Assembly (NCBI GenBank): GCA_023248955.1
Contig: JAHFDP010000012.1
Coordinates: 1,583 to 65,582 of the forward strand
Length of the DNA: 64,000 nucleotides
Direction of reading: 5' to 3'
Source of the DNA: Deltaproteobacteria bacterium
GTDB taxonomy: Bacteria; Myxococcota; Myxococcia; Myxococcales; JAHFDP01
A program made the translations under genes and the position numbers. The notes under the pieces were generated by a model. It saw only the letters and a program-made list of their open reading frames with translations. It was not told where the DNA came from and did not search any database. How positions within the stretch are numbered: position 1 is the first letter of the stretch; every line of letters begins with the position of its first letter. Positions 1 through 14,737 of this stretch are shown piece by piece.

Positions 1-132
1 CGACTTGGTCAGGTGGTGACCATCTTCGACTTGCCAGTTTTGTAGCTCGGGGAGGAGCTTCGCGATCTCGGCGGCGGAGAGTGGCGGAACACCGCCGCGG
101 CAGGGAATGCAGGTTTTCTCAGAGAGCGACAT
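1..132 (-). CDS. phhB: Pterin-4-alpha-carbinolamine dehydratase, N-terminal part (runs off the window edge)
   Basis: Not in ORF track. Manual translation from ATG at 132: [44 protein letters not shown], the typical CxPCxGG N-terminus of PCD/PhhB. Starts just after the DUF1338 stop. Confidence 0.85.
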
Positions 133-134
133 CG

Positions 135-941
135 TTAGGCTCGCACGTTGGTGGATTCGAAAATGCGGTCGGCGTTTTTTTCCACGAACCCGTCGTAGAG
201 TTTTTCCGTCGAGGGATCGGTGTAGCGCTTCGCAAATTCGTAATAGCAACTCGGAATGACGCGGCGCGTGTCGGCGAAGGCGACCTCCACGCGGCTCGCC
301 ACCGTCGACGACTGTTCGAGCAACACCGCCGCGGATCCCTTCACTTCGCCGCCGGAGGTGTTGAGCGCAAAGCCCTGCGTCTTGAGCCAGGCATTGAGAT
401 CGGCGACTTGCGAAAATGTCTTCAAGGCATTGAACGACACCGTGAAGTGATTCACGCGCACGCCGAATGCCACGAGCCACGCACCGTATTCGGACTCGGC
501 GAGGAGCCGTTCGTACGTCGCGTAATCGATGGAGCGCCACGTCGGCAGCCGCGCGAAGAAATCGAACGCGCCGACGGTGGAACCATCAACTTCGGAAACG
601 AGCCCACGTACCGTCTCCTGGAACGCGGACGAAAACGCGCGCGTCCGTAATTGCGAAACGAAGAGCCGCGGATAGTTTCCGCTCGGATGGCTAAACGAAA
701 TCGCGTCGAGCTTCTTGTCCTCGAAAGCGTAGCGACCGCTCTCGCGGTAGCCGAGTGCGACGAAGGGCGCAGCCAGCGCCTCCATCTGAATGGGCGCCAG
801 ATCGAACGTACGCAGTGCGACGTGATCGTTGACCACACGTTCACCGCGCGCTTCGAAAAGCGAGCGAATGCGCTTCGCGTCGGGCGTGGTCATTGAATAA
901 TCGGACCAGAAGTATTCGAACACTTCGTCGAGCGTTTTCAC
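135..941 (-). CDS. DUF1338 family protein, probable 2-oxoadipate dioxygenase/decarboxylase (HglS-like)
   Basis: [15 protein letters not shown] and CYYEFA motifs (His/His/Glu metal ligands); LLEQSST and DRIFEST are typical of DUF1338. Confidence 0.85.
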
Positions 942-1561
942 ATTTCCTCCAGGAGCACCGCGCGCACCGGCGACGCATCGGCACCTTCTAGACGAAGCGG
1001 CAAGGCTACGAGCGTATAGCGGCCCGGCGGAACGTGCGCGAGCACAAGCCCCTCGAGAACGGACAAACCATGGCGCCGAACGGCGTTGTGGCTCTCGAGA
1101 ATCTTGTCTTCGAAGAGATCGATCGATGGCGTATCGATGCCAACCAGGAGTGATCGGTTGTCATACAAGTGATCAATCAACGCGGCGGAGAGCGCGGCGA
1201 AGTCAGTGGTGAAGCGATCGGGATCCGGAAAGGTTCCCGTCTTGAAGAGCACGCGTGGTGCTGCAATAGACGCCATTAGATCATGCGGATGAATTCGCGC
1301 GCCACGCGTCGCCGCGACTTCAATCACCTGACACGGACCGAGATAGGGCGTAAGCGACCGCGCGCCGATGTCCGCACCGGACCGGTCGTAGTGCTTTGGC
1401 GCGTCGGCATGCGCACCCAGATGCAACGTCGTTCGAATTGCGCCGAGGTTGACGCTCGCGCCGTCCGCCATCCTCCACGTTTCTTCGAGCGCGAACGCGA
1501 CGTCGCCAGGCCAGACGCCGAGGCGCGGAGAAACGGCGGGAGAAATATCGATGATGCGCAA
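938..1561 (-). CDS. kynB: Kynurenine formamidase (cyclase family)
   Basis: VWPGD, HLGAHADAP (HxGxHxDxP), GIDTPSID, LEGL and DASPVRA motifs; 4-bp overlap with the downstream gene. Confidence 0.88.
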   Translation of the reverse strand: MRIIDISPAVSPRLGVWPGDVAFALEETWRMADGASVNLGAIRTTLHLGAHADAPKHYDRSGADIGARSLTPYLGPCQVIEVAATRGARIHPHDLMASIAAPRVLFKTGTFPDPDRFTTDFAALSAALIDHLYDNRSLLVGIDTPSIDLFEDKILESHNAVRRHGLSVLEGLVLAHVPPGRYTLVALPLRLEGADASPVRAVLLEEM

Positions 1562-1564
1562 ACG

Positions 1565-2983
1565 CTACTCCGCCGCCGCGATCACTTTGAATTCCACCGC
1601 AATCGGCGTGGGCAGGGCCTTGATGGCGACGGTCGTTCGCGTGGCACCGACACCGGCGAAGTGCTCGCCATAGACGCGATTGAACGTGGCGAAATCGCGA
1701 TCCATGTCGATCAAGTAGACCGTCACGTCGATCACGCGCGCCAACGACGAGCCCGACGCTTCGAGAATCGTCTTCACGTTTTCGATGACCGCGCGCGTCT
1801 GTAATGCAACGTCATACTTTTGTGATCGCCCTTCGGAATCGTGCACTGGACCGCCGGGAATCGAATCCGTTTTCGGATCACGTGGACCGATTCCCGAGAG
1901 GAAAAGCAGACCGCCGACGCGACGCGCGTGCGGATAGGCGCCGACTGGACGCGGCGCGGCGGCGACGGAAATGGCGTCGCTCACGACCGTGGATCCCCGG
2001 GTCAAGCCCGGGGATGACGAATGCGTGACTGAGGACGACGAATGAGTGACCGGGGAGGACGAATGAGTGGCTGCACCTGACGAATTGCCCGTCAGCACGC
2101 CGCGATCGCCTGCGAACACTTCCGCATCCGCCTCATCGAACTCCTGGGCCGCAGCTGCGCGATCAGTCGGTGTGAGCCCAACCACCGCCGCACCCGTTCC
2201 CCAAATCGGTTGGTACGCAAACGCGCGACCTTCGTAACGGTTGTGCTGCCCCATCAGTGCCGCGAGCCACCAGATCGCTTTCAGCTTCTGATCACCGAAC
2301 GCTTGCGCCGAAAATTCACGCGCCAGCTGCGACACATCCTCGAGCCGTCCTTCCCCCAAAAGCTCCACAAGCTTTCGATTCCACTCGTCGTCTTTGCGCG
2401 ACGACACGTGATCCTTCGCTGGATCGATCTCCTCGGTGAAGAGCCGATTCGAAAGTGCAGTCACACTGACTGCAATGGCGCGCTTTCCACTCGATCGCAG
2501 CGCGTCAGACGCTGCCTTGCCAAGCACCAGCGTCTCCGCACGATCCGCGTACATGTTGCACGAGACGATGCAGGCCGGCAGCCGGTTGTCGGGATTGAGC
2601 AACTTGAGAGCGACCACGGATCCGGTGTCGATGGGAAACCCGCGGTACGCCACGGTACGCGTGTGCAAGCCGCGCGCGCGCGCCGCCTTTGCGTAGGCCT
2701 CCGCGTAGTCGGCGTCGATCCGAAAACGGTACGGAATCTCTCCGAGCTCGTGCCACTCCGGATCAACGTGCGTCCACTCCGGCGCGGGATCCGCTTGCAC
2801 TTGGTGGCCGATCACGCTGAGCCACTGCGTGCTGTAAATCAGCAGCAGATCCGCTTCGGCCGCCTCGATCTCCTCGCGCACTTTTTCAAAGGCATCGCGA
2901 ATCGTTTGCCACGCTGGCGATCGCTCCGGCGCCAGCAACGGATGCGGCATACCTGGAACGATATATCCGGCCACGATCGTCAT
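1565..2983 (-). CDS. 2-aminophenol 1,6-dioxygenase alpha subunit fused to a RidA-family 2-aminomuconate deaminase
   Basis: Start MTIVAGYIVPGMPHP at 2983 (ATGA overlap with the beta-subunit stop); LIYSTQWL and HVDPEW resemble AmnA/CnbCa. C-terminal ~135 aa (PVGAYPHARRVGGLLFLSGIGPR...RTTVAIKALPTPIAVEFK) is RidA/YjgF type. Confidence 0.85.
   Translation of the reverse strand: MTIVAGYIVPGMPHPLLAPERSPAWQTIRDAFEKVREEIEAAEADLLLIYSTQWLSVIGHQVQADPAPEWTHVDPEWHELGEIPYRFRIDADYAEAYAKAARARGLHTRTVAYRGFPIDTGSVVALKLLNPDNRLPACIVSCNMYADRAETLVLGKAASDALRSSGKRAIAVSVTALSNRLFTEEIDPAKDHVSSRKDDEWNRKLVELLGEGRLEDVSQLAREFSAQAFGDQKLKAIWWLAALMGQHNRYEGRAFAYQPIWGTGAAVVGLTPTDRAAAAQEFDEADAEVFAGDRGVLTGNSSGAATHSSSPVTHSSSSVTHSSSPGLTRGSTVVSDAISVAAAPRPVGAYPHARRVGGLLFLSGIGPRDPKTDSIPGGPVHDSEGRSQKYDVALQTRAVIENVKTILEASGSSLARVIDVTVYLIDMDRDFATFNRVYGEHFAGVGATRTTVAIKALPTPIAVEFKVIAAAE
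1988..2020. repeat. REP-like palindrome inside the coding linker
   Basis: cgtggatccccgggtcaagcccggggatgacga is identical to 61220-61252; encodes SSPGLTRGST in frame. Confidence 0.85.
2016..2078. repeat. Three imperfect 21-bp tandem repeats (THSSS-containing peptide units)
   Basis: Units beginning gacgaatg at 2016, 2037 and 2058. Confidence 0.75.
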
Positions 2984-3876
2984 GGCGCGCTCCGCTTCGG
3001 ATCCCATTCGACAACGGCATTGCCAGTCCCGATCACGGTTCCGTACGCATGAACCTGTGCCGGATAGGTGGGCATGCCGAGCGCGGACAAAAGCCACGTC
3101 AGCGCACCCGACTTCGCTTCGCTCTCGGTCTGATCAAGGAAATCGGGCAGCTCGTCCATCAGCTCGCGCGTCTTGCCATGGCGCATCAGTTCCAAAACGC
3201 GCATGTCCCAGAGGTATTGCCCGTGGTGATAGATGTGTTCCTTCGACATGTCCTCGGGCGGATCTGGCTCGACGGTGAAGTGGCGATGCGACAGCGAGCA
3301 GGACGCGAGGAGCACCGCGCGACGGCCGCTCTTCTCGACCGCGCGTCGTGTGGCCTCGCCGAGCAATGCCATCTGTTCGTTGCCCACTTCGTTGCTGAAA
3401 TAAAAATAGGCGCCGTTCGAGGAGAGTCCCACGATCGGTTTGTTCCACGAGGGGTTGGCTAGATGGCACGCAGTGAGCGTTCCGTAGTCCACGCGAAAAT
3501 GGGGGTTGCGCATCATCTTCGCGGTGAGGCCGGCGTGGCGCGCTTCGTCGTGAATCGCTTCGGCCAGCGCCACGTCGACGTCGAGCTTGTAGTCGTAGCG
3601 AAAGAGGTTCGGAAAAATCGGATCGACCGAGCGGCTCTCGAAATGCGGCACGCCGAGAATGTGGTGGCCGACGTGCGTGCGCCAATGCGGTGAATGGACG
3701 ATGAGGACATCGAATTCTTTCGTGGCGAGGCTTTGGCGGAGTCGCTCGTAGCCCCAGCGCAAAACGTCCCAGCCGCCCTCGGAGCGCGGTTCGTTTTGTG
3801 GCGGATTTTCTCCGTACACGAGATGCGGCGGATGCGGCGCGAGCGCGCCGAGAACAATTGAACCGCCTCCGCTCAC
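2980..3876 (-). CDS. amnB: 2-aminophenol 1,6-dioxygenase beta (catalytic) subunit
   Basis: APHPPHLVYGENPPQNEPRSEGGW, HSPHW, SVDPIFPNLFRY, FRVDYGT, LSHRHF and YGTVIGTGNAV closely match the AmnB/CnbCb sequence as I recall it. Confidence 0.93.
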   Translation of the reverse strand: MSGGGSIVLGALAPHPPHLVYGENPPQNEPRSEGGWDVLRWGYERLRQSLATKEFDVLIVHSPHWRTHVGHHILGVPHFESRSVDPIFPNLFRYDYKLDVDVALAEAIHDEARHAGLTAKMMRNPHFRVDYGTLTACHLANPSWNKPIVGLSSNGAYFYFSNEVGNEQMALLGEATRRAVEKSGRRAVLLASCSLSHRHFTVEPDPPEDMSKEHIYHHGQYLWDMRVLELMRHGKTRELMDELPDFLDQTESEAKSGALTWLLSALGMPTYPAQVHAYGTVIGTGNAVVEWDPKRSAP

Positions 3877-3902
3877 GTATTGCCTCCGATCACCTTTGTA
3901 TT

Positions 3903-4130
3903 CACAGAGGTTGTGAAGAAATCCTCACAACCTCTGTGTTTTGAAGGGTCGGGCCGCCGCCCGCCCCTCTGCGCCGAGTGAATCGGCGCATGTACGGCGC
4001 TCAATGATAGCGCCGTCGGCCCACGTGGTTGCGCTGGAAGCGCTCGGTCGGACCCCGGGCTCACCCCACCCGCCGCCACGGCTTTCGCCGCGTCGCTGTG
4101 AGCGAAGGATGAACAATTCACAGGCTCACA
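3903..4130. mobile_element. Putative MITE-like structured insertion between amnC and amnB
   Basis: Ends gaggttgtgaa (3907-3917) and ttcacaggctc (4117-4127) form a 9/11 inverted repeat; perfect 14-bp hairpin 3903-3916/3925-3938; further hairpins at 3970-3990 and 3994-4016. Confidence 0.5.
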
Positions 4131-5565
4131 CCTTCACGCAAACATTTTTCGATTCACTAAAAAATTCGAGCGAATGCACTCCGCCTTCGCGGCCGACTCC
4201 ACTGTCTTTCACGCCGCCAAAGGGCACGCGCAGATCCCGAAGCAGCCAGGTGTTCACCCACACGGTTCCGGTTTCCAACGCCGCGGCGACACGATGCGCG
4301 CGCGAAAGATCGCGCGTCCAGAGCGACGCCGAGAGTCCGTAGCGAACGCCGTTGGCAATCTCGAGCGCTTCGGTTTCGCCTTCGAACGGATGGACTGTCG
4401 CCACCGGACCGAAAATCTCCTGCGTGGCCGTGCGGCTCTTCGTTGAAAGTCCGGCGATGATCGTTGGCTCGAGAAACGCGCCACGATCAAACGGCGGCGC
4501 GAGCGAAGGACGCTTACCACCACAAAGAATCGTCCCGCCTTCGGACTTCGCGAGCGTCAAGTAACCCTCGACTTTGTCACGATGCGCCGCTGAAACCAGT
4601 GCGCCCAGCGTCGTCTCCGGGGAGCGCGGATCGCCAACACGCATGGCGCGCACGCGAACGACGAGCGCTTCCACGAAGCGATCGTAAATCGATCGATCGA
4701 TCAAGATTCTCGATCCACAGAGACAAATCTGGCCCTGATTCAGAAAAGCCGCGCGCGCCGCACCTTCCACCGCCGCGTCGAAATCGCAATCCGCAAAAAT
4801 GAGCGTGGCGTTCTTCCCGCCGAGCTCGAGCGAGAGCTTCTTGAACAACGGTGCCGCGGCGTGCGCTACCCGCGCGCCGGTAGCCGTGCCGCCGGTGAAT
4901 GAAACCGCCGCGACGTCGCGATGCTCGATGAGCGCCTGACCAGCCTCGGCGCCGAATCCATGAACGAGGTTGAACACCCCAGCAGGCGCCCCGACCTCTT
5001 TGAAAATCTCCGCCAACACGGACGCCGTGAGCGGCGTAAGCTCGCTGGGCTTGGCCACCACGGCATTGCCCATCACCAGCGCTGGCGCGGCTTTCCACGA
5101 CAAAAGATAGAGTGGCAAATTCCATGGCGTAATGAGCGCAACAACGCCAAGCGGTCGCCGCAGTGTGTAGTTGAGCGCGCCGTCCATCTCGTGCGCGGCG
5201 GTGGACGTGTGGCGCGCGGCGCCGGCGAAGAAACGGAAGTTGGCCACGGCACGCGGAATGTCGAGCGTGGCCGCGAGCTTCACGGGCTTGCCAGTGTCGA
5301 GCGATTCCAGCTGGGCGAGTTCGTCGGCACGCGCGGCGATTCGGGAGGCAACGGCGTCGCAGAGATCGGCGCGTTCGGCGACGGTTGTGCGCGCCCACGA
5401 AGCGGAAGCTTTGCGCGCCGCGGCGACGGCGTGATCAACATCCGCCGCGTTCGAACGTGGAATCTTGGCGATGCACTCGCCCGTCGCCGGCGCGATGTCG
5501 TCGAGGTAAACGCCCGACGCGGGTGGAACGAAGGCGTTGCTAATGAAGTTCGCCTTCGACGTCAT
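4126..5565 (-). CDS. amnC: 2-aminomuconic semialdehyde dehydrogenase (ALDH8/HMSD type)
   Basis: ITPWNLPLYLLSWK, SFTGGT, LELGGKN, NQGQICLCGSR, EIFGPV and WLLRDLRVPFGG; start taken at MTSKANF. Confidence 0.9.
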   Translation of the reverse strand: MTSKANFISNAFVPPASGVYLDDIAPATGECIAKIPRSNAADVDHAVAAARKASASWARTTVAERADLCDAVASRIAARADELAQLESLDTGKPVKLAATLDIPRAVANFRFFAGAARHTSTAAHEMDGALNYTLRRPLGVVALITPWNLPLYLLSWKAAPALVMGNAVVAKPSELTPLTASVLAEIFKEVGAPAGVFNLVHGFGAEAGQALIEHRDVAAVSFTGGTATGARVAHAAAPLFKKLSLELGGKNATLIFADCDFDAAVEGAARAAFLNQGQICLCGSRILIDRSIYDRFVEALVVRVRAMRVGDPRSPETTLGALVSAAHRDKVEGYLTLAKSEGGTILCGGKRPSLAPPFDRGAFLEPTIIAGLSTKSRTATQEIFGPVATVHPFEGETEALEIANGVRYGLSASLWTRDLSRAHRVAAALETGTVWVNTWLLRDLRVPFGGVKDSGVGREGGVHSLEFFSESKNVCVKV

Positions 5566-5611
5566 GGGCGGGCTCCCATCGGGGTGCACATAACCTGGAC
5601 TCACTTTCGGT

Positions 5612-5687
5612 CCCCCCAACCTAGCCCTCCCCCGCAAAGGGGGGAGGGGATACTTCAGGAGGGGACACTTCAGGAGGGGCCGCTTCA
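5612..5687. repeat. REP-like C/G-rich palindrome plus 3 x 15-bp tandem repeat forming the 3' end of the asparaginase-like gene
   Basis: ccctcccccgcaaaggggggaggg hairpin; ggagggg-NNN-cttca units at 5643, 5658 and 5673 (PPEVS/PEAA peptide repeats). Confidence 0.65.
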
Positions 5688-6766
5688 GGGTAGGGGGAAA
5701 TCGTTTTATTCCACTGAATATATCGGTCCCGATCTGGATCCCATTCGTCCCAGGTCGGAATCGTCTCCAACTTTCCCAACAGCACCTCCGGCACCAGCCC
5801 CGGCACGATGAACGCCTTCTGCCGATGCAGCGGATAGGGATTGCGCAGATCGAATCCGAGCACGCCCAGCACCGACCGGGCGATGGTCCAGCTGGCGCGC
5901 GCGTTCCAGCCGTGCGCGATCTTGATCACCACGCCAAGCCCCTCGGGAAAATCGGGATGCACGACGGAGAGCCCGAGCAACCCGTCCGCGCCCTCTTTCG
6001 CGAGGACGCGGCCTTCGCACGCTTTGAGAATCGTGCTGTCGAGACGGTTGAAGCCGCCCACAAGATCGGGATGGCGCATCATCGCTTCCCAGATCCAGTC
6101 GTCGTCGCGGTGCGCCGAGAGCGACGCGAAGAGCACCGCCAGCTCCGAAACCGTGTTCGAGGCCGTCGGCAATCCACAACCATCGCGCGCGATCCTAAGC
6201 GGAGTCCAATCCGCGCCCAACTGACCCCGTATTACATCCAATAGCGATTGAAATACACGGTGACTCGGCAACGTATAGCCCGCGCGCGACCAGCCAAGCA
6301 GCCGGCAGCCGAGCAGAATCGCGGCATGCTCGCCCGAGCAGCAGTGGTACCAGCGCCGCGGGCGCCGCACCTGCCTACCAAATTGCACCAGCGGAACGTC
6401 GAGCGGCGTCTGCATGAGCCCGCGCTCCGACTCGGCGAGCAGCGACTGTGCCGCGGCCACATGTTCGACGTCGCCGTTATGGCTCGAACAAGCGATAGCC
6501 TTCTGCCGCCAATCGGTGACCGGCGCCAGTGCCTCCGCAAACACCTTCATCATAAGCGGCTTCATCATGCTGCGGCCGTAGCAGAGAACGTTTCCGCCGA
6601 AGGAGTGAATGAGCTTGCCGCCGTTGGCCCAGGCCACCGCGCCGTGAACCGTGGTCTCCGAAATATCGTTGCGCCGGTAGTCGACGAGCGGCTCCCACTC
6701 GACGTCGCGTCCAGTGGGAATTCCCGGCGCGCGGACGCCGAGCGGGCTTGCCGGATACAGACTCAT
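5621..6766 (-). CDS. Asparaginase II (Rhizobium etli-type, class 3) family hydrolase
   Basis: RSMMKP (RSxxK), SSHNG, CCSGEH (family motif NCSGKH), DGCGLP, AKEGADG. Confidence 0.85.
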   Translation of the reverse strand: MSLYPASPLGVRAPGIPTGRDVEWEPLVDYRRNDISETTVHGAVAWANGGKLIHSFGGNVLCYGRSMMKPLMMKVFAEALAPVTDWRQKAIACSSHNGDVEHVAAAQSLLAESERGLMQTPLDVPLVQFGRQVRRPRRWYHCCSGEHAAILLGCRLLGWSRAGYTLPSHRVFQSLLDVIRGQLGADWTPLRIARDGCGLPTASNTVSELAVLFASLSAHRDDDWIWEAMMRHPDLVGGFNRLDSTILKACEGRVLAKEGADGLLGLSVVHPDFPEGLGVVIKIAHGWNARASWTIARSVLGVLGFDLRNPYPLHRQKAFIVPGLVPEVLLGKLETIPTWDEWDPDRDRYIQWNKTISPYPEAAPPEVSPPEVSPPPFAGEG

Positions 6767-7983
6767 AACGCCGTCCCGAGCCGCGGCACCACGCGTTCGG
6801 TGAATGCCGTCATGTTGCGAATCACGCGCGCGTTGTCGTGGTTGAAAAAATCGAACCAGAGCATCAAGCGATCGTCGGGATGAAAACGCGCTCGAAGTTG
6901 CGCCGCGATTTCGTCAGCGTCACCAATCACCGCGTTGTCGGCGGCCTCGTCGACTTTTTTCGGATCGAGCGTTCCCTCGAGTGCGGTCCAATAAGCCGAA
7001 AGCGCGGCGCGCGCTTCCACGCGAGCAGCCGCGCGACGCGCCTCGACCGAAAGATCATGTTCTTCGTTGAGGAACACCAGCACCGTGCGCGGCATGTTGC
7101 TGCGTCGCCACGGGCCGCCGGAGGGATGATAAGTGCGCGTCAGCCGTCGATGCGTGTCCTCGATGATCTCGGGCTTGGTGATGGAGAGATTGAAAATCCC
7201 CACCGGACCAATCGCCTGCACTTCTTCTTGAAGCCGCGGATCGTGCGAACCCAGCATCGGGACAACCAGTTCGCGTCGAAAATCTTGCGGAATGATTTTC
7301 AATTTTTCGAACGACCAGCGGCGCGGCACTTCGATCGCCGCGCTGCTCGAGCCAGCGGCTTCTTGCACGCGCGCCCAATCGGCGTCGCTGCGAAAATCGG
7401 CGCGCGACAATTTCGTCGGACGCACGTTTTCGCTCGACAGCGTGTCGCCACGGACGAGCCGCAAGAAAACTTCCGCGGCCTCGGCGAAAATTTTTCCTTT
7501 GAGGGCTGGCCAAGCGGCTTCTTCCACGGCGCTGCGCGGAACGATACCCGAAGCGCGGTTGATGAAATCGAAGCGTCCCGCCGCGATGCCGACGTGAATG
7601 CGCCGTCGCTCGACCGGATCGAGTCCGTGCAACGCCGTGAAGGCTGCCACACGTTCCGCTGCCGCGACCGGACCACCGTTGCAGAGAATGTTCATCACCG
7701 CTGAGCCGGTTTCGATACGGCGCGTGCGACGAAACACCTGATGCGAGAGCTGCAAGAAATCAACGTTGAGACCGACCTCACCCTGCCAGCTGGGAATCAC
7801 CGGATGCGCGTGCGACTTCTGCACTTCGCTGGAAAGGTGCGACTCGGCAATCCAGGCCACGCCGTAACCGAGCGCGTCGGCCGCTTCGACCTGCGCGAAG
7901 AAGTTGCGAAACATCTCCGCTTCGCTCGGCAGGTAACCGGCGACCGGCGTCTGGCTGATGGAGAAAAAGACGTTGAAGTTCAC
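6763..7983 (-). CDS. Luciferase-like (LLM class) flavin-dependent monooxygenase
   Basis: QVEAADALGYGVAWIAESH, TRRIETGSAV, AAAERVA and FTERVVP are typical of LLM TIM barrels; 4-bp overlap with the asparaginase-like gene. Confidence 0.82.
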   Translation of the reverse strand: MNFNVFFSISQTPVAGYLPSEAEMFRNFFAQVEAADALGYGVAWIAESHLSSEVQKSHAHPVIPSWQGEVGLNVDFLQLSHQVFRRTRRIETGSAVMNILCNGGPVAAAERVAAFTALHGLDPVERRRIHVGIAAGRFDFINRASGIVPRSAVEEAAWPALKGKIFAEAAEVFLRLVRGDTLSSENVRPTKLSRADFRSDADWARVQEAAGSSSAAIEVPRRWSFEKLKIIPQDFRRELVVPMLGSHDPRLQEEVQAIGPVGIFNLSITKPEIIEDTHRRLTRTYHPSGGPWRRSNMPRTVLVFLNEEHDLSVEARRAAARVEARAALSAYWTALEGTLDPKKVDEAADNAVIGDADEIAAQLRARFHPDDRLMLWFDFFNHDNARVIRNMTAFTERVVPRLGTAL

Positions 7984-7993
7984 GTATTACATC

Positions 7994-8785
7994 CTATATA
8001 CTTTGTAATCTTCCGCCGTCGACCGCCAGGCTCTGCCCGCGAATGAACGACGCCGCCGGCGAAACCAAGAACGCGATAGCCGCTGCGATCTCTTCGGGTC
8101 GCGCCAGTCGTGCTTCCGGAACCGCCGCGATCCATCCCGCTTCGATCTCCGCGATCGATCGACCCGTGCGCTTGGCCGTAAATTCGCCGAGCTCCGTGAG
8201 CCGCTCGGTCGCCGTGTAACCGGGCAAAATGTTGTTGATGGTCACGCCCGGAGGCAGCTCGCGCGCCAGCGTCTTCGACCAACCCGCCATGGCGGCACGC
8301 ACCGTGTTGCCGACTCCGACACCAGCGATCGGCTCGCGCATCGAGGTGGAAAGTACATTCACGATACGCCCGAAACCGGCGGCGCGCATGCCCGGAACGG
8401 TTGCGCGCACGAGCAGATGCGCGGAGAGGAGCACGCCGCCAAAGCCCTTCTGCAAATCAGCTTCGGTGACGTCGAGTAGACTCTTCGGCGCTGGACCACC
8501 GTTGTTGTTGACGAGCACGTGAACGGGGCCGTGATCGCGCACCAGGGCGTCCACCGCGCTCTGCAACGCGGTGCGATCATCGAGATCGATCGCCAAGTAG
8601 CGCGCATCGCTCGCACCGGCGACGCGCAACTGCGGCAACAATTTTTCGAGCGCATCGCGGCGCCGCGCGAGCACCGTCACCTGCGCGCCAAGCGAAGCAA
8701 TGGCAAGTGCAGCCGCTCGTCCGATACCCGCGCTCGCACCAGTCACCAGTGCGTGTCGCGATTTCAGTTGGAGATCGAGACCCAT
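7994..8785 (-). CDS. SDR family oxidoreductase (atypical active site)
   Basis: VTGASAGIG, LVNNNGGP, GNTVR in place of YxxxK, NNILPG, LAVDGG; start at MGLDLQL. Confidence 0.85.
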   Translation of the reverse strand: MGLDLQLKSRHALVTGASAGIGRAAALAIASLGAQVTVLARRRDALEKLLPQLRVAGASDARYLAIDLDDRTALQSAVDALVRDHGPVHVLVNNNGGPAPKSLLDVTEADLQKGFGGVLLSAHLLVRATVPGMRAAGFGRIVNVLSTSMREPIAGVGVGNTVRAAMAGWSKTLARELPPGVTINNILPGYTATERLTELGEFTAKRTGRSIAEIEAGWIAAVPEARLARPEEIAAAIAFLVSPAASFIRGQSLAVDGGRLQSI

Positions 8786-13193: not shown

Positions 13194-13946
13194 TCATTTC
13201 GCGGCCAACTTCTCGTCGATTCCACACGCACGCGCCACGTCGTCGCGAAACGCCAGCCAGCGCGAAAGCGCTTCGCTGAGTGCTTTTTCAACCATGGGTT
13301 CGGTTTCCGTCGTCACGTAGCCGAGCACCATTTCCCACGCATCCGTGCGATGTCCGCCTTCCACGAGCTTGTGTACGCGCACCAGCTCCAACGCCGTGGG
13401 CGCAACGCCGTGAAAGCGCGCCAGCGGATGTCGAAGAATCGCCTTCGTGATCTCCCCGGCCGCGGCGGGTTTGTGCTGCGCGGCGAGCTCGCGACGCTCG
13501 TTGGCGCTTCCCTCGACAAACAGCGTGAGCGCCGCCGCACCCACGATCCAGGGCGTCGACCAACTCGCGCGATCCAAAAACGCGCGGTAAGCCGCCGCCG
13601 ATGGAAGCAGCGTCACGTTCTCGAATTGCGCGCGCGAAAATCCGCAGCCTTCCATCATGCGCAAGAAGAGCTCGGGATGCGGCGCGGATTTGCTGATGCC
13701 GCCGGTCTGCTCTTCGTAAATATTTTCTGCCAACGCGGCGCACACCGACGCCGGCGGCGCATGGCCCAGCACGCGCGCCAGCATCACCGGAAAGTCGCGG
13801 ACGTAGACGGCCCACTCCTGCTGAAAATGCGGCAAGAGGTTCGGCAACGGCACGCGGCCATTGGCAAACGCCGGCCAGGCCCAGTGGTTTTTTTTCTCGA
13901 GGACAACGAGCAAACGCTCGCGCAAAGCATCTTTGGAATCGATCAC
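13194..13946 (-). CDS. Heme-oxygenase-like (PqqC/CADD/TenA) iron-binding redox protein
   Basis: ENIYEEQTG...HPELF, FVEGS and HKLVEGGH motifs; GTG start inferred at 13946. Confidence 0.7.
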   Translation of the reverse strand: MIDSKDALRERLLVVLEKKNHWAWPAFANGRVPLPNLLPHFQQEWAVYVRDFPVMLARVLGHAPPASVCAALAENIYEEQTGGISKSAPHPELFLRMMEGCGFSRAQFENVTLLPSAAAYRAFLDRASWSTPWIVGAAALTLFVEGSANERRELAAQHKPAAAGEITKAILRHPLARFHGVAPTALELVRVHKLVEGGHRTDAWEMVLGYVTTETEPMVEKALSEALSRWLAFRDDVARACGIDEKLAAK

Positions 13947-13975
13947 GGACCGAATTGTACCAGCTACCCGGCGCG

Positions 13976-14737
13976 CTATCCGCGCAGTTTGTAACCGCTG
14001 CGGAGGAGTTGCAGCGCCAGCGCCAGCGAGGCGGCACACAACACACCGAGCAAGAGCAGCCCGATCTCCGGACGCGAATCCGCGATGCCCAGCATGGCGA
14101 AACGCACGCTGTCCACGAGATAAAAAATCGGATTGGCCAACGTCAGGCGGCGCAGCGCGGTGGGCAGCATGGAGACCGACGTGAACACGCCACCGAGAAA
14201 CGTCAGCGGTGTGATGACGAAAGTGGGAACGAAGTTGACCTGCTCGAACTTGTCCGCCCAGATCGCCACGCACAAGCCCATGGCGCCGAAGGCGATCGAA
14301 ATCAACAAAAGATCAAGAAGGAGCAAGAGTGGGTGGGCCACCGCGAAGCCGGTAAAAATCGCCGCCACCAGCCAGGTCAGCGCGCCGACCAACAGCGCGC
14401 GCACCACGGCAGCGCCGAGAAAGCCGGCCAGCACCTCGGCGTAGGACAGCGGCGTGACGAGCAGATCGATCAACGTGCCCTGCATCTTCATCATGAAGAG
14501 CGACGACGCCGTGTTGAGAAACGCGTTGGAGATCACCCCAAGCGTGATCAGTCCGGGAACCAGAAAGCGGCTGTAGGGAACGCCCTGGATGTCGTGCAGC
14601 CGGCCGCCGATCGAGTAGCCAAACACGATGAAGTAGAGCGCGGTGGTGATGAGCGGCGAGAGCAGCGTCTGACCGGCCACCCGCATGAAGCGGAGGACTT
14701 CCTTCTCGAAGAGCGTGCGCAAGCCGCGACTGATCAC
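13976..14737 (-). CDS. ABC-2 type transporter permease (YadH-like)
   Basis: KEVLRF...QTLLSP, FLVPGLI, PLTFLGGVF, NPIFYLVD. Confidence 0.9.
   Translation of the reverse strand: MISRGLRTLFEKEVLRFMRVAGQTLLSPLITTALYFIVFGYSIGGRLHDIQGVPYSRFLVPGLITLGVISNAFLNTASSLFMMKMQGTLIDLLVTPLSYAEVLAGFLGAAVVRALLVGALTWLVAAIFTGFAVAHPLLLLLDLLLISIAFGAMGLCVAIWADKFEQVNFVPTFVITPLTFLGGVFTSVSMLPTALRRLTLANPIFYLVDSVRFAMLGIADSRPEIGLLLLGVLCAASLALALQLLRSGYKLRG

What the first reader, a model, noticed from the sequence alone, without database searches (positions are those of the whole stretch)
135..8785. Candidate new tryptophan/kynurenine catabolic pathway via 2-aminophenol, without kynureninase
Seen: eight co-oriented, mostly overlapping genes (SDR, LLM monooxygenase, asparaginase-II-like, AmnC, AmnB, AmnA-RidA, KynB, DUF1338). 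Established: KynB makes kynurenine; AmnAB/AmnC/RidA-type deaminase convert 2-aminophenol to 4-oxalocrotonate and are mainly known from nitrobenzene/aminophenol degraders; some LLM enzymes are Baeyer-Villiger monooxygenases (diketocamphane monooxygenases); HglS converts 2-oxoadipate to D-2-hydroxyglutarate. No kynureninase, kynurenine 3-monooxygenase, 3-hydroxyanthranilate dioxygenase or ACMS decarboxylase is in the window. Inference: the two unexplained genes fill the gap exactly. Baeyer-Villiger oxidation of the kynurenine aryl ketone gives the 2-aminophenyl beta-ester of aspartate, or N4-(2-hydroxyphenyl)asparagine after an O->N acyl shift. This is an asparagine analogue that an asparaginase-fold enzyme could cleave to aspartate + 2-aminophenol. 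Ring cleavage, deamination, SDR reduction and HglS would complete the route. This would also give aminophenol dioxygenases a natural substrate source. I do not know of a description of this route but cannot check the literature.
Basis: partly seen in the sequence, partly recalled or inferred. Interest (0 to 1): 0.95.

Follow-up and report, generated by a model that had tools for sequence, protein, structure and literature searches.

The report
Kynureninase-free tryptophan breakdown via 2-aminophenol
This operon, conserved in many mostly uncultured bacterial groups, appears to break down tryptophan by a route not yet described, in which a flavin oxygenase and an asparaginase-like hydrolase turn kynurenine into aspartate and 2-aminophenol in place of the usual kynureninase step.

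Summary
Eight co-oriented genes lie on the minus strand at 135-8785: atypical SDR, divergent LLM, class-3-asparaginase-like hydrolase (AsnII), AmnC, AmnB, AmnA-RidA fusion, KynB-like formamidase and short DUF1338.

- **Synteny.** SDR-LLM-AsnII-AmnC-AmnB-AmnA/RidA-KynB recurs in MAGs labelled Planctomycetota, Myxococcota, Acidobacteriota and others. All 7 genes are present in 29 of 80 loci. Tryptophan 2,3-dioxygenase (TDO) lies beside the cluster in 27 of 80.
- **Phyletic profile, own phylum (301 genomes).** LLM is found in 12. The AsnII and AmnB orthologues are found in the same 12 plus one incomplete genome. All 13 have TDO and none has kynureninase, which 108 of the 301 carry.
- **Across phyla.** In 50 LLM-bearing genomes, TDO is in 50, AmnB in 50 and kynureninase in 0.
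- **Divergent LLM clade (34-44% identity).** An AsnII-like gene still follows LLM. In 14 loci it is fused in frame to KynB, and a convergent TDO follows in 13 of these.
- **Enzymes.** AmnB is close to solved 2-aminophenol 1,6-dioxygenases (E 3e-121). AsnII keeps the asparaginase nucleophile and the Arg that binds the substrate carboxylate.

The Baeyer-Villiger-plus-amidase link from kynurenine to 2-aminophenol is the best reading (about 0.6), but no biochemistry supports it yet. DUF1338 is accessory. The SDR probably acts late in the pathway. Nine searches of the held library found no description of this route.

The parts
7994..8785 (-). Atypical SDR (263 aa), first gene of the operon. It is probably a late-pathway NAD(P)H reductase; this role is inferred.
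   Evidence: - Pfam adh_short_C2, 138 bits.
- The nearest solved structures are uncharacterised SDRs 5va8, 5idx and 1o5i.
- (S/G)159-N160-x-x-R163 replaces Y-x-x-x-K; N160 and R163 are invariant in 25 orthologues.
- An SDR lies upstream of LLM in 57 of 72 loci that have room for it.
- No SDR match in any of the 46 loci of the divergent clade.
6763..7983 (-). Divergent luciferase-like (LLM) flavin-dependent oxygenase, 406 aa. Proposed (N-formyl)kynurenine Baeyer-Villiger monooxygenase.
   Evidence: - PF00296, 35.9 bits, residues 5-182 only.
- No PDB hit by phmmer; a profile reaches only E 2.2e-4 to 8cbb.
- Only 317 representatives at E<=1e-3 among 1.84 billion proteins.
- 4376 proteins at E<=1e-20, all with generic names.
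- At least 544 genomic relatives.
5621..6766 (-). Class-3-asparaginase-fold Ser-Lys hydrolase, 381 aa. Proposed hydrolase of N4-(2-hydroxyphenyl)asparagine or the beta-aspartyl aryl ester, releasing L-Asp and 2-aminophenol.
   Evidence: - PF06089, 172 bits.
- ReAIV/ReAV structures, E 2e-18.
- R65-S66-x-x-K69, S95, C143, H147, D195-G196-C197 and K257 are kept. E146 stands in place of the zinc ligand Lys138.
- 71-79% identical across phyla.
4126..5637 (-). AmnC-like 2-aminomuconate-6-semialdehyde dehydrogenase.
   Evidence: - PF00171, 575 bits.
- TIGR03216, 615.5 bits, below the cut-off of 693.25.
- Present in 40 of 46 long loci.
3904..3937 (.). REP-like perfect 13-bp-stem hairpin in the 249-nt AmnC-AmnB spacer. 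It is a repeated element and not part of the pathway.
   Evidence: Sequence read. Complete hairpins are also on contigs C13, C47, C73 and C84, with half-copies on C50 and C64. A weak Rfam ftsZ-DE match (27 bits against a gathering score of 72) is not significant.
2980..3876 (-). AmnB: catalytic beta subunit of 2-aminophenol 1,6-dioxygenase.
   Evidence: - 3vsg_B, E 3e-121.
- 8ihg_A, E 3.6e-119.
- 7txy_B, E 2e-107.
All three alignments cover the full length.
1565..2983 (-). AmnA (non-catalytic alpha subunit) fused through a Ser/Thr/His-rich linker to a RidA-family 2-aminomuconate deaminase domain.
   Evidence: - 7txy_A, E 4.2e-60, for residues 3-270.
- 6izh (2-aminomuconate deaminase), E 1.3e-25, for residues 339-469.
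- Pfam LigB + Ribonuc_L-PSP.
- A match over at least half of the fused protein in 33 of 46 long loci.
- RidA is a separate ORF in L037, L054 and L080 and in L119.
938..1561 (-). KynB-like arylformamidase (kynurenine formamidase).
   Evidence: - 4cog, E 2.8e-50.
- TIGR03035, 201.2 bits, below the cut-off of 223.05.
- Present in 30 of 46 long loci.
- Fused to AsnII in 14 metagenome loci.
135..941 (-). Short DUF1338/HGLS-family protein, 268 aa. An accessory gene, not a conserved member of the module.
   Evidence: - PF07063, 104 bits.
- 3lho, E 5.8e-76; HglS 6w1k, E 3.2e-28.
- Found in only 3 of the 13 cluster genomes of the phylum sample.
1..132 (-). 5' part of a pterin-4a-carbinolamine dehydratase gene. 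It follows the operon and is not conserved with it.
   Evidence: PF01329, 107.5 bits, on the full gene read from the contig. tblastn found it in none of the 80 related loci.

Best explanation
The operon encodes a kynureninase-independent route for tryptophan catabolism. Steps marked "shown" rest on family assignment; the rest are inferred.

1. **TDO (shown by family).** In this genome it is unlinked, on contig C11; elsewhere it is often adjacent. It opens tryptophan to N-formylkynurenine.
2. **KynB-like formamidase (shown by family).** It removes formate, either here or after step 4.
3. **Divergent LLM (inferred).** Using reduced FMN and O2, its flavin peroxide attacks the aryl ketone of kynurenine and inserts oxygen between the ring and the carbonyl (Baeyer-Villiger, aryl migration). 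The product is the 2-aminophenyl beta-ester of aspartate, which can rearrange by O-to-N acyl shift to N4-(2-hydroxyphenyl)-L-asparagine.
4. **Class-3-asparaginase-fold hydrolase (inferred).** It keeps the Ser nucleophile, both Ser-Lys tandems and the Arg that holds the substrate alpha-carboxylate. It cleaves the product of step 3 to L-aspartate and 2-aminophenol.
5. **AmnAB (strongly supported by similarity).** It cleaves 2-aminophenol to 2-aminomuconate semialdehyde.
6. **AmnC, then the RidA domain fused to AmnA (by similarity).** AmnC oxidises the semialdehyde to 2-aminomuconate, and the RidA domain deaminates that to 4-oxalocrotonate.
7. **Atypical SDR (weak inference).** It most likely reduces this unsaturated 2-oxo-diacid.

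DUF1338 is an occasional add-on.
For: 1. **Synteny across phyla.**
   - At least 544 genomic relatives of the LLM exist; the best 80 loci are 60-73% identical.
   - Of 46 loci with at least 8 kb downstream of LLM: AsnII in 40, AmnC in 40, AmnB in 35, AmnA/RidA in 33, KynB in 30.
   - An SDR lies upstream in 57 of 72 loci with room.
   - All seven genes are present in 29 of 80 loci.
   - TDO is in 27 of 80 loci, 18 of them co-oriented within 2.5 kb upstream.

2. **Phyletic profile in one 301-genome sample of the own phylum.**
   - LLM: 12.
   - AsnII orthologue (E<=4e-179): the same 12 plus G122, which is 74% complete. The next best matches are only about E 1e-25.
   - AmnB: the same 13.
   - TDO: 191, including all 13.
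   - Kynureninase: 108, none of the 13.

3. **Across phyla, 50 LLM-bearing genomes.**
   - TDO: 50 of 50.
   - AmnB: 50 of 50.
   - Kynureninase over the cut-off: 0 of 50.

4. **Distant LLM clade (34-44% identity, 46 metagenome loci).**
   - An AsnII-like gene is in 41 loci, directly downstream and co-oriented in 39.
   - In 14 loci it is fused in frame to a KynB domain. Pfam confirms PF06089 + PF04199.
   - A convergent TDO follows in 13 of those 14.
   - L119 carries AmnB-AmnA-RidA-AmnC-PF01557-x-LLM-AsnII~KynB-x-TDO in one cluster.

5. **Enzyme identities.**
   - AmnB is close to solved 2-aminophenol and 2-amino-5-chlorophenol dioxygenases (E 3e-121).
   - The RidA domain's best PDB hit is 2-aminomuconate deaminase.
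   - KynB matches kynurenine formamidase at E 2.8e-50.

6. **AsnII active site.**
   - It keeps Arg47, Ser48, Lys51, Ser80, Cys135, Cys189 and Lys263 of ReAV.
   - The roles of these residues are taken from passages of PMC12292245. Arg47 holds the alpha-carboxylate of L-Asn.
   - They are conserved in all 43 sequences of three clades.
   - The substrate should therefore carry an Asn/Asp-like head, which is what a Baeyer-Villiger product of kynurenine has.

7. **Cofactor.**
   - No F420 biosynthesis genes were found.
   - A generic flavin reductase is present.
   - The LLM is therefore probably FMN-dependent.

8. **Chemistry (recalled, not tested).**
   - Some LLM enzymes use flavin peroxide as a nucleophile on carbonyls (diketocamphane monooxygenases, RutA).
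   - Electron-rich aryl groups migrate well.
   - o-Aminophenyl esters undergo O-to-N acyl shift.
Against:
- The LLM shows no specific similarity to any characterised Baeyer-Villiger LLM, so the reaction type rests on pathway logic alone.
- No flavin reductase is conserved in the cluster.
- One locus of the distant clade (L094) has room for AsnII but lacks it. A ferritin-like and a LodA-like gene follow the LLM there.
- In part of that clade the LLM-AsnII pair stands among housekeeping genes, with no TDO, KynB or Amn gene nearby.
- KynB scores below its equivalog cut-off.
- KMO and ACMSD were not searched in the genome. The 3-HAO search had no positive control.
- MAGs are incomplete, so an absence in any single genome is weak. 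Related genomes are not independent samples.
Confidence: 0.6

Rival explanations
1. Same pathway, different order. The LLM oxidises N-formylkynurenine. The asparaginase-like enzyme acts as an esterase on the 2-formamidophenyl beta-aspartyl ester. The KynB-like enzyme then deformylates 2-formamidophenol to 2-aminophenol.
For: - AsnII and KynB are fused in frame in 14 loci. Fusions often join consecutive steps (general knowledge).
- KynB scores 201.2, below the arylformamidase equivalog cut-off of 223.05.
- KynB sits after the amn genes in the operon.
Against: - The KynB-like protein is close to solved kynurenine formamidases (E 2.8e-50).
- A formylated amine makes the aryl group a poorer migrating group (recalled chemistry).
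- Conservation of an amidase fold is more easily explained by an anilide substrate, which needs the free amine.
Confidence: 0.2
2. The LLM is a ring hydroxylase, a functional analogue of kynurenine 3-monooxygenase. The AmnAB-like dioxygenase cleaves 3-hydroxykynurenine directly (or 3-hydroxyanthranilate), and the asparaginase-like enzyme removes the side chain later.
For: - 3-Hydroxykynurenine is itself an o-aminophenol.
- The cluster-bearing genomes lack kynureninase.
Against: - AmnB aligns end to end at E 3e-121 with dioxygenases solved with small aminophenols.
- Removing the acyl side chain needs C-C cleavage, which a Ser-Lys amidohydrolase with an Asn-type site is not expected to do.
- No ACMS-decarboxylase-like gene is conserved in the cluster.
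Confidence: 0.05
3. Baeyer-Villiger oxidation with alkyl migration gives O-anthraniloyl-serine, which is hydrolysed to anthranilate plus serine. This would be a kynureninase bypass, with AmnAB serving something else.
For: - In part of the distant clade the LLM-AsnII pair, with or without KynB and TDO, occurs with no Amn gene nearby.
Against: - AmnB co-occurs with the LLM in 50 of 50 genomes and in all 12 LLM-bearing genomes of the phylum sample.
- No anthranilate-degrading gene is conserved in the cluster.
- The hydrolase keeps the Asn/Asp-binding Arg.
Confidence: 0.04
4. The module degrades an environmental aminophenol precursor, for example an aryl amide or a benzoxazinoid-type compound. Its link to tryptophan is incidental.
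For: - amn and cnb genes are best known from degraders of nitroaromatics (PDB molecule names).
- In this genome TDO is unlinked.
Against: - TDO lies in 27 of 80 loci and in 50 of 50 genomes.
- KynB is in the operon, and is fused to AsnII with TDO alongside in a distant clade.
- The carriers are diverse environmental MAGs rather than enrichment isolates.
Confidence: 0.04
5. The atypical SDR is the NAD(P)H:flavin reductase partner of the LLM, rather than a late-pathway reductase. This rival concerns the SDR step only.
For: - SDR and LLM are adjacent in most main-clade loci (57 of 72).
- The SDR lacks the catalytic Tyr and Lys.
- SDR-fold flavin reductases exist (recalled: biliverdin reductase B).
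Against: - None of the 46 loci of the distant LLM clade has an SDR match, so the LLM does not need it.
- In L119, which has no SDR match, a PF01557 4-oxalocrotonate-decarboxylase/hydratase-family gene follows AmnC.
- The own genome has a PF01613 flavin reductase and no DmpG-type aldolase.
Confidence: 0.25

Closest known systems
2-Aminophenol meta-cleavage pathway (amn / cnb genes; solved AmnAB and CnbCaCb, PDB 3vsg, 8ihg, 7txy; AmnD-type deaminase 6izh)
   Same: The AmnB, AmnA, AmnC and RidA-type deaminase are clear homologues. The steps from 2-aminophenol to 4-oxalocrotonate should be the same.
   Different: - Here AmnA is fused to the deaminase.
- The classical downstream decarboxylase, hydratase and aldolase genes are missing from the operon. 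No DmpG-type aldolase is in the genome.
- The module is joined to TDO, KynB, an LLM and an asparaginase-like hydrolase, instead of nitroarene-reducing upper pathways.
Bacterial kynurenine (anthranilate) pathway: KynA/TDO, KynB, KynU
   Same: It has the same first two enzymes, TDO and KynB.
   Different: Kynureninase was not found in any of the 63 cluster-bearing genomes examined. Kynurenine is proposed to be split oxidatively into aspartate and 2-aminophenol, not hydrolytically into alanine and anthranilate.
4-Hydroxyacetophenone catabolism (aryl-ketone Baeyer-Villiger monooxygenase, then esterase, then hydroquinone ring cleavage).
   Same: The logic is the same: aryl ketone, oxygen insertion, hydrolysis to a phenol, ring-cleaving dioxygenase, semialdehyde dehydrogenase, reductase.
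   Different: That oxygenase is an FAD/NADPH single-component enzyme of another fold, and its substrate is not an amino acid. Here the oxygenase is an LLM TIM-barrel enzyme and the hydrolase has an asparaginase fold.
LLM enzymes that attack carbonyls with flavin peroxide (diketocamphane monooxygenases; RutA). The function is recalled. For PMC8706424 only the title in a search listing was seen.
   Same: Same superfamily (PF00296), and the same proposed type of nucleophilic flavin-peroxide chemistry.
   Different: There is no specific sequence similarity. No PDB hit by phmmer, and a profile reaches only E 2.2e-4 to a LuxA-like chain. The family is isolated, with 317 representatives among 1.84 billion proteins.
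Class 3 L-asparaginases ReAIV and ReAV of Rhizobium etli (PDB 8cly, 7os3; passages of PMC12292245)
   Same: Same fold family (PF06089). It has the Ser48-Lys51 and Ser80-Lys263 tandems, Arg47, Cys135 and Cys189.
   Different: - Identity is low; the match to ReAIV is E 2e-18.
- In the main clade the zinc ligand Lys138 is Glu, in at least 90% of 33 sequences.
- The orthologue occurs only with LLM and AmnB.
- The proposed substrate is an N4-aryl asparagine or aryl ester, not asparagine.
ARO bacterial microcompartment locus of Actinobacteria (PMC10470539, passages read)
   Same: It contains a 2-aminophenol dioxygenase (7txy) and AmnC. Its authors state that 2-aminophenol must be supplied by an unknown upper pathway.
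   Different: The words luciferase, asparaginase, kynurenine and tryptophan do not occur in that paper's main text. Whether ARO-bearing genomes carry the LLM-AsnII pair could not be checked here. One LLM homologue (51% identity) comes from a Micromonosporaceae isolate.

Membership tests
2-aminophenol 1,6-dioxygenase (AmnAB / CnbC) | Beta subunit closely similar over its full length to solved AmnB/CnbCb | tested here: met
   3vsg_B, E 3e-121, residues 5-295 of 298. 8ihg_A, E 3.6e-119.
2-aminophenol 1,6-dioxygenase (AmnAB / CnbC) | A paralogous non-catalytic alpha subunit encoded next to beta | tested here: met
   The adjacent gene matches 7txy_A at E 4.2e-60 and 3vsg_A at E 2e-51. It overlaps AmnB by 4 nt.
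2-aminophenol 1,6-dioxygenase (AmnAB / CnbC) | Preference for 2-aminophenol as substrate | not testable with these tools
   Needs an enzyme assay.
Arylformamidase KynB (TIGR03035) | Score over the NCBIfam equivalog cut-off | tested here: not met
   201.2 bits against a cut-off of 223.05.
Arylformamidase KynB (TIGR03035) | Similarity to solved kynurenine formamidases, and co-occurrence with TDO | tested here: met
   4cog, E 2.8e-50. TDO is in the own genome, in 50 of 50 cluster-bearing genomes and in 27 of 80 loci.
Class 3 L-asparaginase (PF06089, ReAV type) | Pfam model over the cut-off; Arg47, Ser48-Lys51 and Ser80-Lys263 present | tested here: met
   172 bits. R65, S66, K69 and S95 are invariant and K257 nearly invariant in 33 orthologues. 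They are kept in all 43 sequences of three clades.
Class 3 L-asparaginase (PF06089, ReAV type) | Zinc site Cys135-Lys138-Cys189 | tested here: not met
   Both Cys are kept, but Lys138 is Glu146 (CSGEH) in the main clade. The distant clades keep Lys.
Class 3 L-asparaginase (PF06089, ReAV type) | Hydrolyses free L-asparagine | not testable with these tools
   Needs an assay. The strict co-occurrence with LLM and AmnB argues for a different substrate.
Luciferase-like monooxygenase superfamily (PF00296) | Pfam model over the cut-off | tested here: met
   35.9 bits against 27.9, N-terminal half only. Distant family members reach 56-57 bits over most of the model.
LLM-type (type II) Baeyer-Villiger monooxygenases | Specific relatedness to a characterised member, or demonstrated oxygen insertion next to a ketone | tested here: not met
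   No PDB chain at E<=0.01. A profile gives only generic LuxA-like matches. The activity is not testable here, so it may work like one without being a family member.
Classical SDR | Gly-rich NAD(P)-binding motif | tested here: met
   TGASAGIGR at the N-terminus. G16, S18, G20 and G22 are invariant.
Classical SDR | Catalytic Tyr-x-x-x-Lys | tested here: not met
   It aligns as G/S159-N160-T-V/I-R163 against Y-x-x-x-K of 9fe6. N160 and R163 are invariant in 25 orthologues.
HglS / DUF1338 (PF07063) | Pfam model over the cut-off; similarity to solved HglS | tested here: met
   103.8 bits. 6w1k, E 3.2e-28, but it is much closer to the uncharacterised 3lho (E 5.8e-76).
HglS / DUF1338 (PF07063) | Belongs to the conserved pathway module | tested here: not met
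   Found in 3 of the 13 cluster-bearing genomes of the phylum sample, and in 1 of 46 long loci at the 45% identity filter.
RidA-type 2-aminomuconate deaminase | RidA fold, with the best solved relative being a 2-aminomuconate deaminase | tested here: met
   PF01042, 81 bits. 6izh, E 1.3e-25, is the top RidA-family hit.

The most novel reading that the evidence does not exclude
A widespread and so far undescribed branch of the kynurenine pathway. A flavin-dependent LLM enzyme performs a Baeyer-Villiger oxidation on kynurenine (or N-formylkynurenine). A class-3-asparaginase-fold hydrolase then releases L-aspartate and 2-aminophenol. This would make tryptophan the natural source of substrate for AmnAB-type 2-aminophenol dioxygenases in many mostly uncultured bacterial phyla, and it replaces kynureninase entirely.
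Probability: 0.6. Interest if true: 0.88.

Novelty: new variant of a known kind. Interest (0 to 1): 0.85.

Why it matters
If true, it would matter in five ways.

- **A new route.** It adds a new route to the catabolism of a proteinogenic amino acid, with two enzyme activities not described before: a kynurenine Baeyer-Villiger monooxygenase of the LLM fold, and an aryl-asparagine or aryl-aspartate hydrolase of the class 3 asparaginase fold.
- **A natural role for 2-aminophenol dioxygenases.** These enzymes are known mainly from degraders of man-made nitroaromatics. The ARO-microcompartment paper states that the upper pathway feeding 2-aminophenol is unknown (PMC10470539, passages).
- **A gap in genome annotation.** It explains how many environmental bacteria that have TDO but no kynureninase can use tryptophan. 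This affects metabolic reconstruction of Planctomycetota-, Myxococcota- and Acidobacteriota-labelled MAGs.
- **Directly testable.** Two recombinant enzymes and LC-MS would settle it.
- **Biocatalysis.** It offers a new catalyst for aryl-ketone oxidation of amino acids.

Tried and rejected
- **Structure prediction and fold search of the LLM.** No structural statement is made.
- **Expression.** No RNA holder was listed for the operon, and read laying was not used. The only strong DNA holder may be the source sample.
- **ESM Atlas**. It gave only generic LLM or hypothetical clusters and holds no structure model.
- **Rfam**. Only a sub-threshold ftsZ-DE match in the AmnC-AmnB spacer.
- **Promoter and terminator scan**. 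No more sites than in shuffled sequence.
- **F420 dependence of the LLM.** Rejected for this genome: no F420 ligase, and no CofH over the cut-off.
- **DUF1338/HglS as a pathway step.** Rejected as a general feature.
- **PCD as part of the operon.** Rejected; it is in none of the 80 loci.
- **SDR as an obligatory LLM partner.** Made unlikely.
- **First metagenome scan** with P0022 found nothing.
- **P0012.** This 1501-aa protein with LLM, GATase and ApbE domains was not followed up. It may be a read-through gene call.
- **Literature.** Nine searches found no paper describing kynurenine conversion to 2-aminophenol or this gene cluster. Subscription journals are not covered. Supplements are closed; Fig. 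S2 of PMC10470539 may list further ARO-locus genes that I could not see.
- **Not tested:** KMO and ACMSD in the genome, and whether ARO-BMC genomes hold the LLM-AsnII pair.
- **Phylum name.** The tool does not name the phylum of G000 and I did not establish it.
- **Unpublished genome.** The 301-genome sample includes G196, flagged as unpublished. It enters only the tallies. It is listed among the TDO matches and among none of the LLM, AsnII or AmnB matches.

Full report
**What is there.** The window is contig C40:1583-65582 of a 3.83-Mb assembly in 116 contigs that is 95.57% complete. On the minus strand, from 8785 down to 135, lie eight genes:

1. An SDR.
2. A luciferase-like (LLM) protein that barely passes Pfam (35.9 bits).
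3. An Asparaginase_II-family protein (AsnII).
4. An aldehyde dehydrogenase nearest to 2-hydroxymuconic-semialdehyde dehydrogenases (AmnC).
5. A LigB-family protein (AmnB).
6. A second LigB-family protein fused to a RidA domain (AmnA-RidA).
7. A cyclase-family KynB-like protein.
8. A short DUF1338.

The gene junctions are overlaps of 4-17 nt or gaps of 3-10 nt. The exception is a 249-nt AmnC-AmnB spacer that holds a repeated hairpin element. Downstream are a pterin-4a-carbinolamine dehydratase and a deoxyhypusine-synthase-like gene, and then the contig ends. Upstream are an ORF with no family match and aconitase.

**Identity of the known parts.**
- AmnB aligns end to end with solved 2-amino-5-chlorophenol and 2-aminophenol 1,6-dioxygenase beta subunits (E 3e-121 and 3.6e-119).
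- Its neighbour matches the alpha subunits (E 4e-60). The C-terminal domain of that neighbour has 2-aminomuconate deaminase as its best solved relative (E 1.3e-25).
- The KynB-like protein matches solved kynurenine formamidases (E 2.8e-50), although it scores below NCBI's equivalog cut-off (201 against 223).
- The genome has a TDO on contig C11 and nothing resembling kynureninase (21 bits against a cut-off of 246).

**The two unexplained genes are a conserved pair tied to TDO, KynB and AmnAB.**

*Synteny.* A scan of one genome per species with the LLM found at least 544 relatives. The best 80 are 60-73% identical. All are MAGs, labelled by their depositors as Planctomycetota, Myxococcota or Deltaproteobacteria, Bdellovibrionales, Holophagae or Acidobacteria, Latescibacterota, Eisenbacteria and Krumholzibacteriia. 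A number carry implausible labels such as Enterobacterales.

| Gene | Loci with the gene, of 46 with at least 8 kb downstream of the LLM |
|---|---|
| AsnII | 40 |
| AmnC | 40 |
| AmnB | 35 |
| AmnA/RidA | 33 |
| KynB | 30 |

- An SDR precedes the LLM in 57 of 72 loci with room.
- 29 of the 80 loci hold all seven genes.
- The commonest additional neighbour is TDO. One search found it in 24 loci and Pfam confirmed it. By tblastn it is in 27 of 80 loci, 18 of them co-oriented just upstream.

*Phyletic profile.* All counts below come from the same 301-genome sample of the window's own phylum.

| Gene | Genomes of 301 | Among the 13 cluster genomes |
|---|---|---|
| LLM | 12 | 12 |
| AsnII orthologue (69-78% identity) | 13 | 13 |
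| AmnB | 13 | 13 |
| TDO | 191 | 13 |
| Kynureninase | 108 | 0 |

The thirteenth genome, G122, is only 74% complete. Below the AsnII orthologues there is a gap down to generic family members at about E 1e-25.

Across phyla, 50 LLM-bearing genomes have TDO in 50, AmnB in 50 and kynureninase over the cut-off in 0. Related genomes are not independent, but the pattern holds in five families of one phylum and in MAGs carrying many different phylum labels.

**Independent confirmation from a distant clade.** A metagenome scan with a 45%-identical LLM returned 46 loci whose LLMs are 34-44% identical to the window's.
- An AsnII-like gene is present in 41 loci, directly downstream and co-oriented in 39.
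- Four of the five loci without it have less than 500 nt downstream of the LLM.
- One, L094, has a ferritin-like and a LodA-like gene there instead.
- In 14 loci the AsnII-like gene is fused in frame to a KynB domain. Pfam confirms PF06089 + PF04199 in L111 and L119. A convergent TDO follows in 13 of the 14.
- L119 holds AmnB, AmnA, a separate RidA, AmnC, a PF01557 (4-oxalocrotonate decarboxylase/hydratase family) gene, the LLM, the AsnII~KynB fusion and TDO in one cluster.
- In the remaining part of this clade the LLM-AsnII pair stands alone among housekeeping genes.

**Why the pair most likely converts kynurenine to 2-aminophenol.**
- TDO and KynB make kynurenine. AmnAB needs a free o-aminophenol.
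- The conserved module contains nothing else that could bridge the two. Kynureninase was not found in any of the 63 cluster-bearing genomes examined (the 13 of the phylum sample and the 50 across phyla).
- Going from an aryl ketone to a phenol needs oxygen insertion next to the carbonyl and then hydrolysis.
- The LLM superfamily includes enzymes that do exactly this with flavin peroxide (recalled).
- The hydrolase keeps all residues shown by mutagenesis to be essential in the R. etli asparaginase ReAV. These include Ser48 and Arg47, and Arg47 holds the alpha-carboxylate of L-asparagine (passages of PMC12292245).
- The Baeyer-Villiger product of kynurenine is an aspartate beta-aryl ester. After an O-to-N shift it becomes an N4-aryl asparagine. 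In either form it has the asparagine-like head that such a site should bind.
- The main clade replaces the zinc ligand Lys138 by Glu, which would fit a changed leaving-group pocket; that reading is speculative.
- The LLM is probably FMN-dependent. The genome shows no F420 pathway and has a generic flavin reductase.
- None of this is direct evidence for the chemistry. The LLM has no detectable specific relationship to any characterised enzyme.

**The tail of the pathway.**
- DUF1338 is not conserved with the module. It is in 3 of the 13 cluster genomes, while many kynureninase-bearing genomes have a distant DUF1338.
- The SDR lacks the Tyr-x-x-x-Lys catalytic motif and has an invariant Asn and Arg instead.
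- None of the 46 distant-clade loci has an SDR match. In L119 a PF01557 enzyme follows AmnC.
- The own genome lacks a DmpG-type aldolase.
- I therefore favour a role for the SDR after the deaminase, for example reduction of 4-oxalocrotonate towards 2-oxoadipate. A role as flavin reductase for the LLM remains possible (about 0.25).

**Order of steps.** The AsnII~KynB fusion leaves open that the LLM acts on N-formylkynurenine and that deformylation comes last (a rival at about 0.2).

**Novelty.** Nine full-text searches found no description of this route or cluster. Database names for the LLM are generic. A 2023 paper on an actinobacterial 2-aminophenol microcompartment states that the upper pathway supplying 2-aminophenol is unknown (PMC10470539, passages). 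A 2026 preprint on 2-aminomuconate reductase was read as abstract only and concerns eukaryotes. The library does not hold most subscription journals, so prior publication cannot be excluded.

**Verdict.** This is a real, strongly conserved and widely distributed module. Its best reading is a new kynureninase-free branch of tryptophan catabolism through 2-aminophenol. The two key reactions are inferred and are directly testable.

Noticed in passing
window 3877-4125 (hairpin about 3904-3937): The 249-nt AmnC-AmnB spacer holds a perfect 13-bp-stem hairpin. Complete copies recur on contigs C13, C47, C73 and C84, with half-copies on C50 and C64. It looks like a REP-like repeated element. In related loci this spacer is mostly under 60 nt.
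   Followed up: partly
L111:11176-12723, L119:11194-12834 and 12 further metagenome loci: In-frame fusion of an Asparaginase_II-like domain to a KynB/cyclase domain. It lies directly after a divergent LLM gene and before a convergent TDO.
   Followed up: yes
window 7994-8785: The SDR belongs to a subfamily that has (S/G)-N-x-x-R in place of the catalytic Y-x-x-x-K. The subfamily includes the uncharacterised structures 5va8, 5idx and 1o5i.
   Followed up: partly
window 1565-2983 (linker about residues 290-335 of the protein): AmnA is joined to the RidA domain by a low-complexity Ser/Thr/His-rich linker that contains the near-repeat SSSPVTHSSSSVTHSSSP.
   Followed up: no
protein P0012 (1501 aa): A predicted protein that joins an LLM N-terminal part with GATase and ApbE (flavin transferase) domains. 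It may be a read-through gene call. GMP synthase lies upstream of the LLM in L111 and L119.
   Followed up: no
L094:7217-11232: This is the one LLM locus with room but no AsnII-like gene. The LLM is followed by a ferritin-like (PF12902) protein and a weakly LodA-like protein, which suggests a different partner chemistry in that lineage.
   Followed up: partly
window 13194-14273 (-): A Haem_oxygenas_2 'iron-containing redox enzyme' family gene (PF14518, 67 bits) lies near an ABC ATPase, a DUF72 gene and an esterase. It is unrelated to the finding.
   Followed up: no
window 1-132 and G000:C40:1388-1714: A pterin-4a-carbinolamine dehydratase gene starts 3 nt after the DUF1338 stop codon. It is not found in any of the 80 related loci.
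   Followed up: yes
protein P0006: An LLM homologue (51% identity) comes from an isolate named Micromonosporaceae bacterium Da 78-11. This is the same family in which the ARO 2-aminophenol microcompartment was described. It is a possible culturable test organism, but its gene neighbourhood could not be read here.
   Followed up: no
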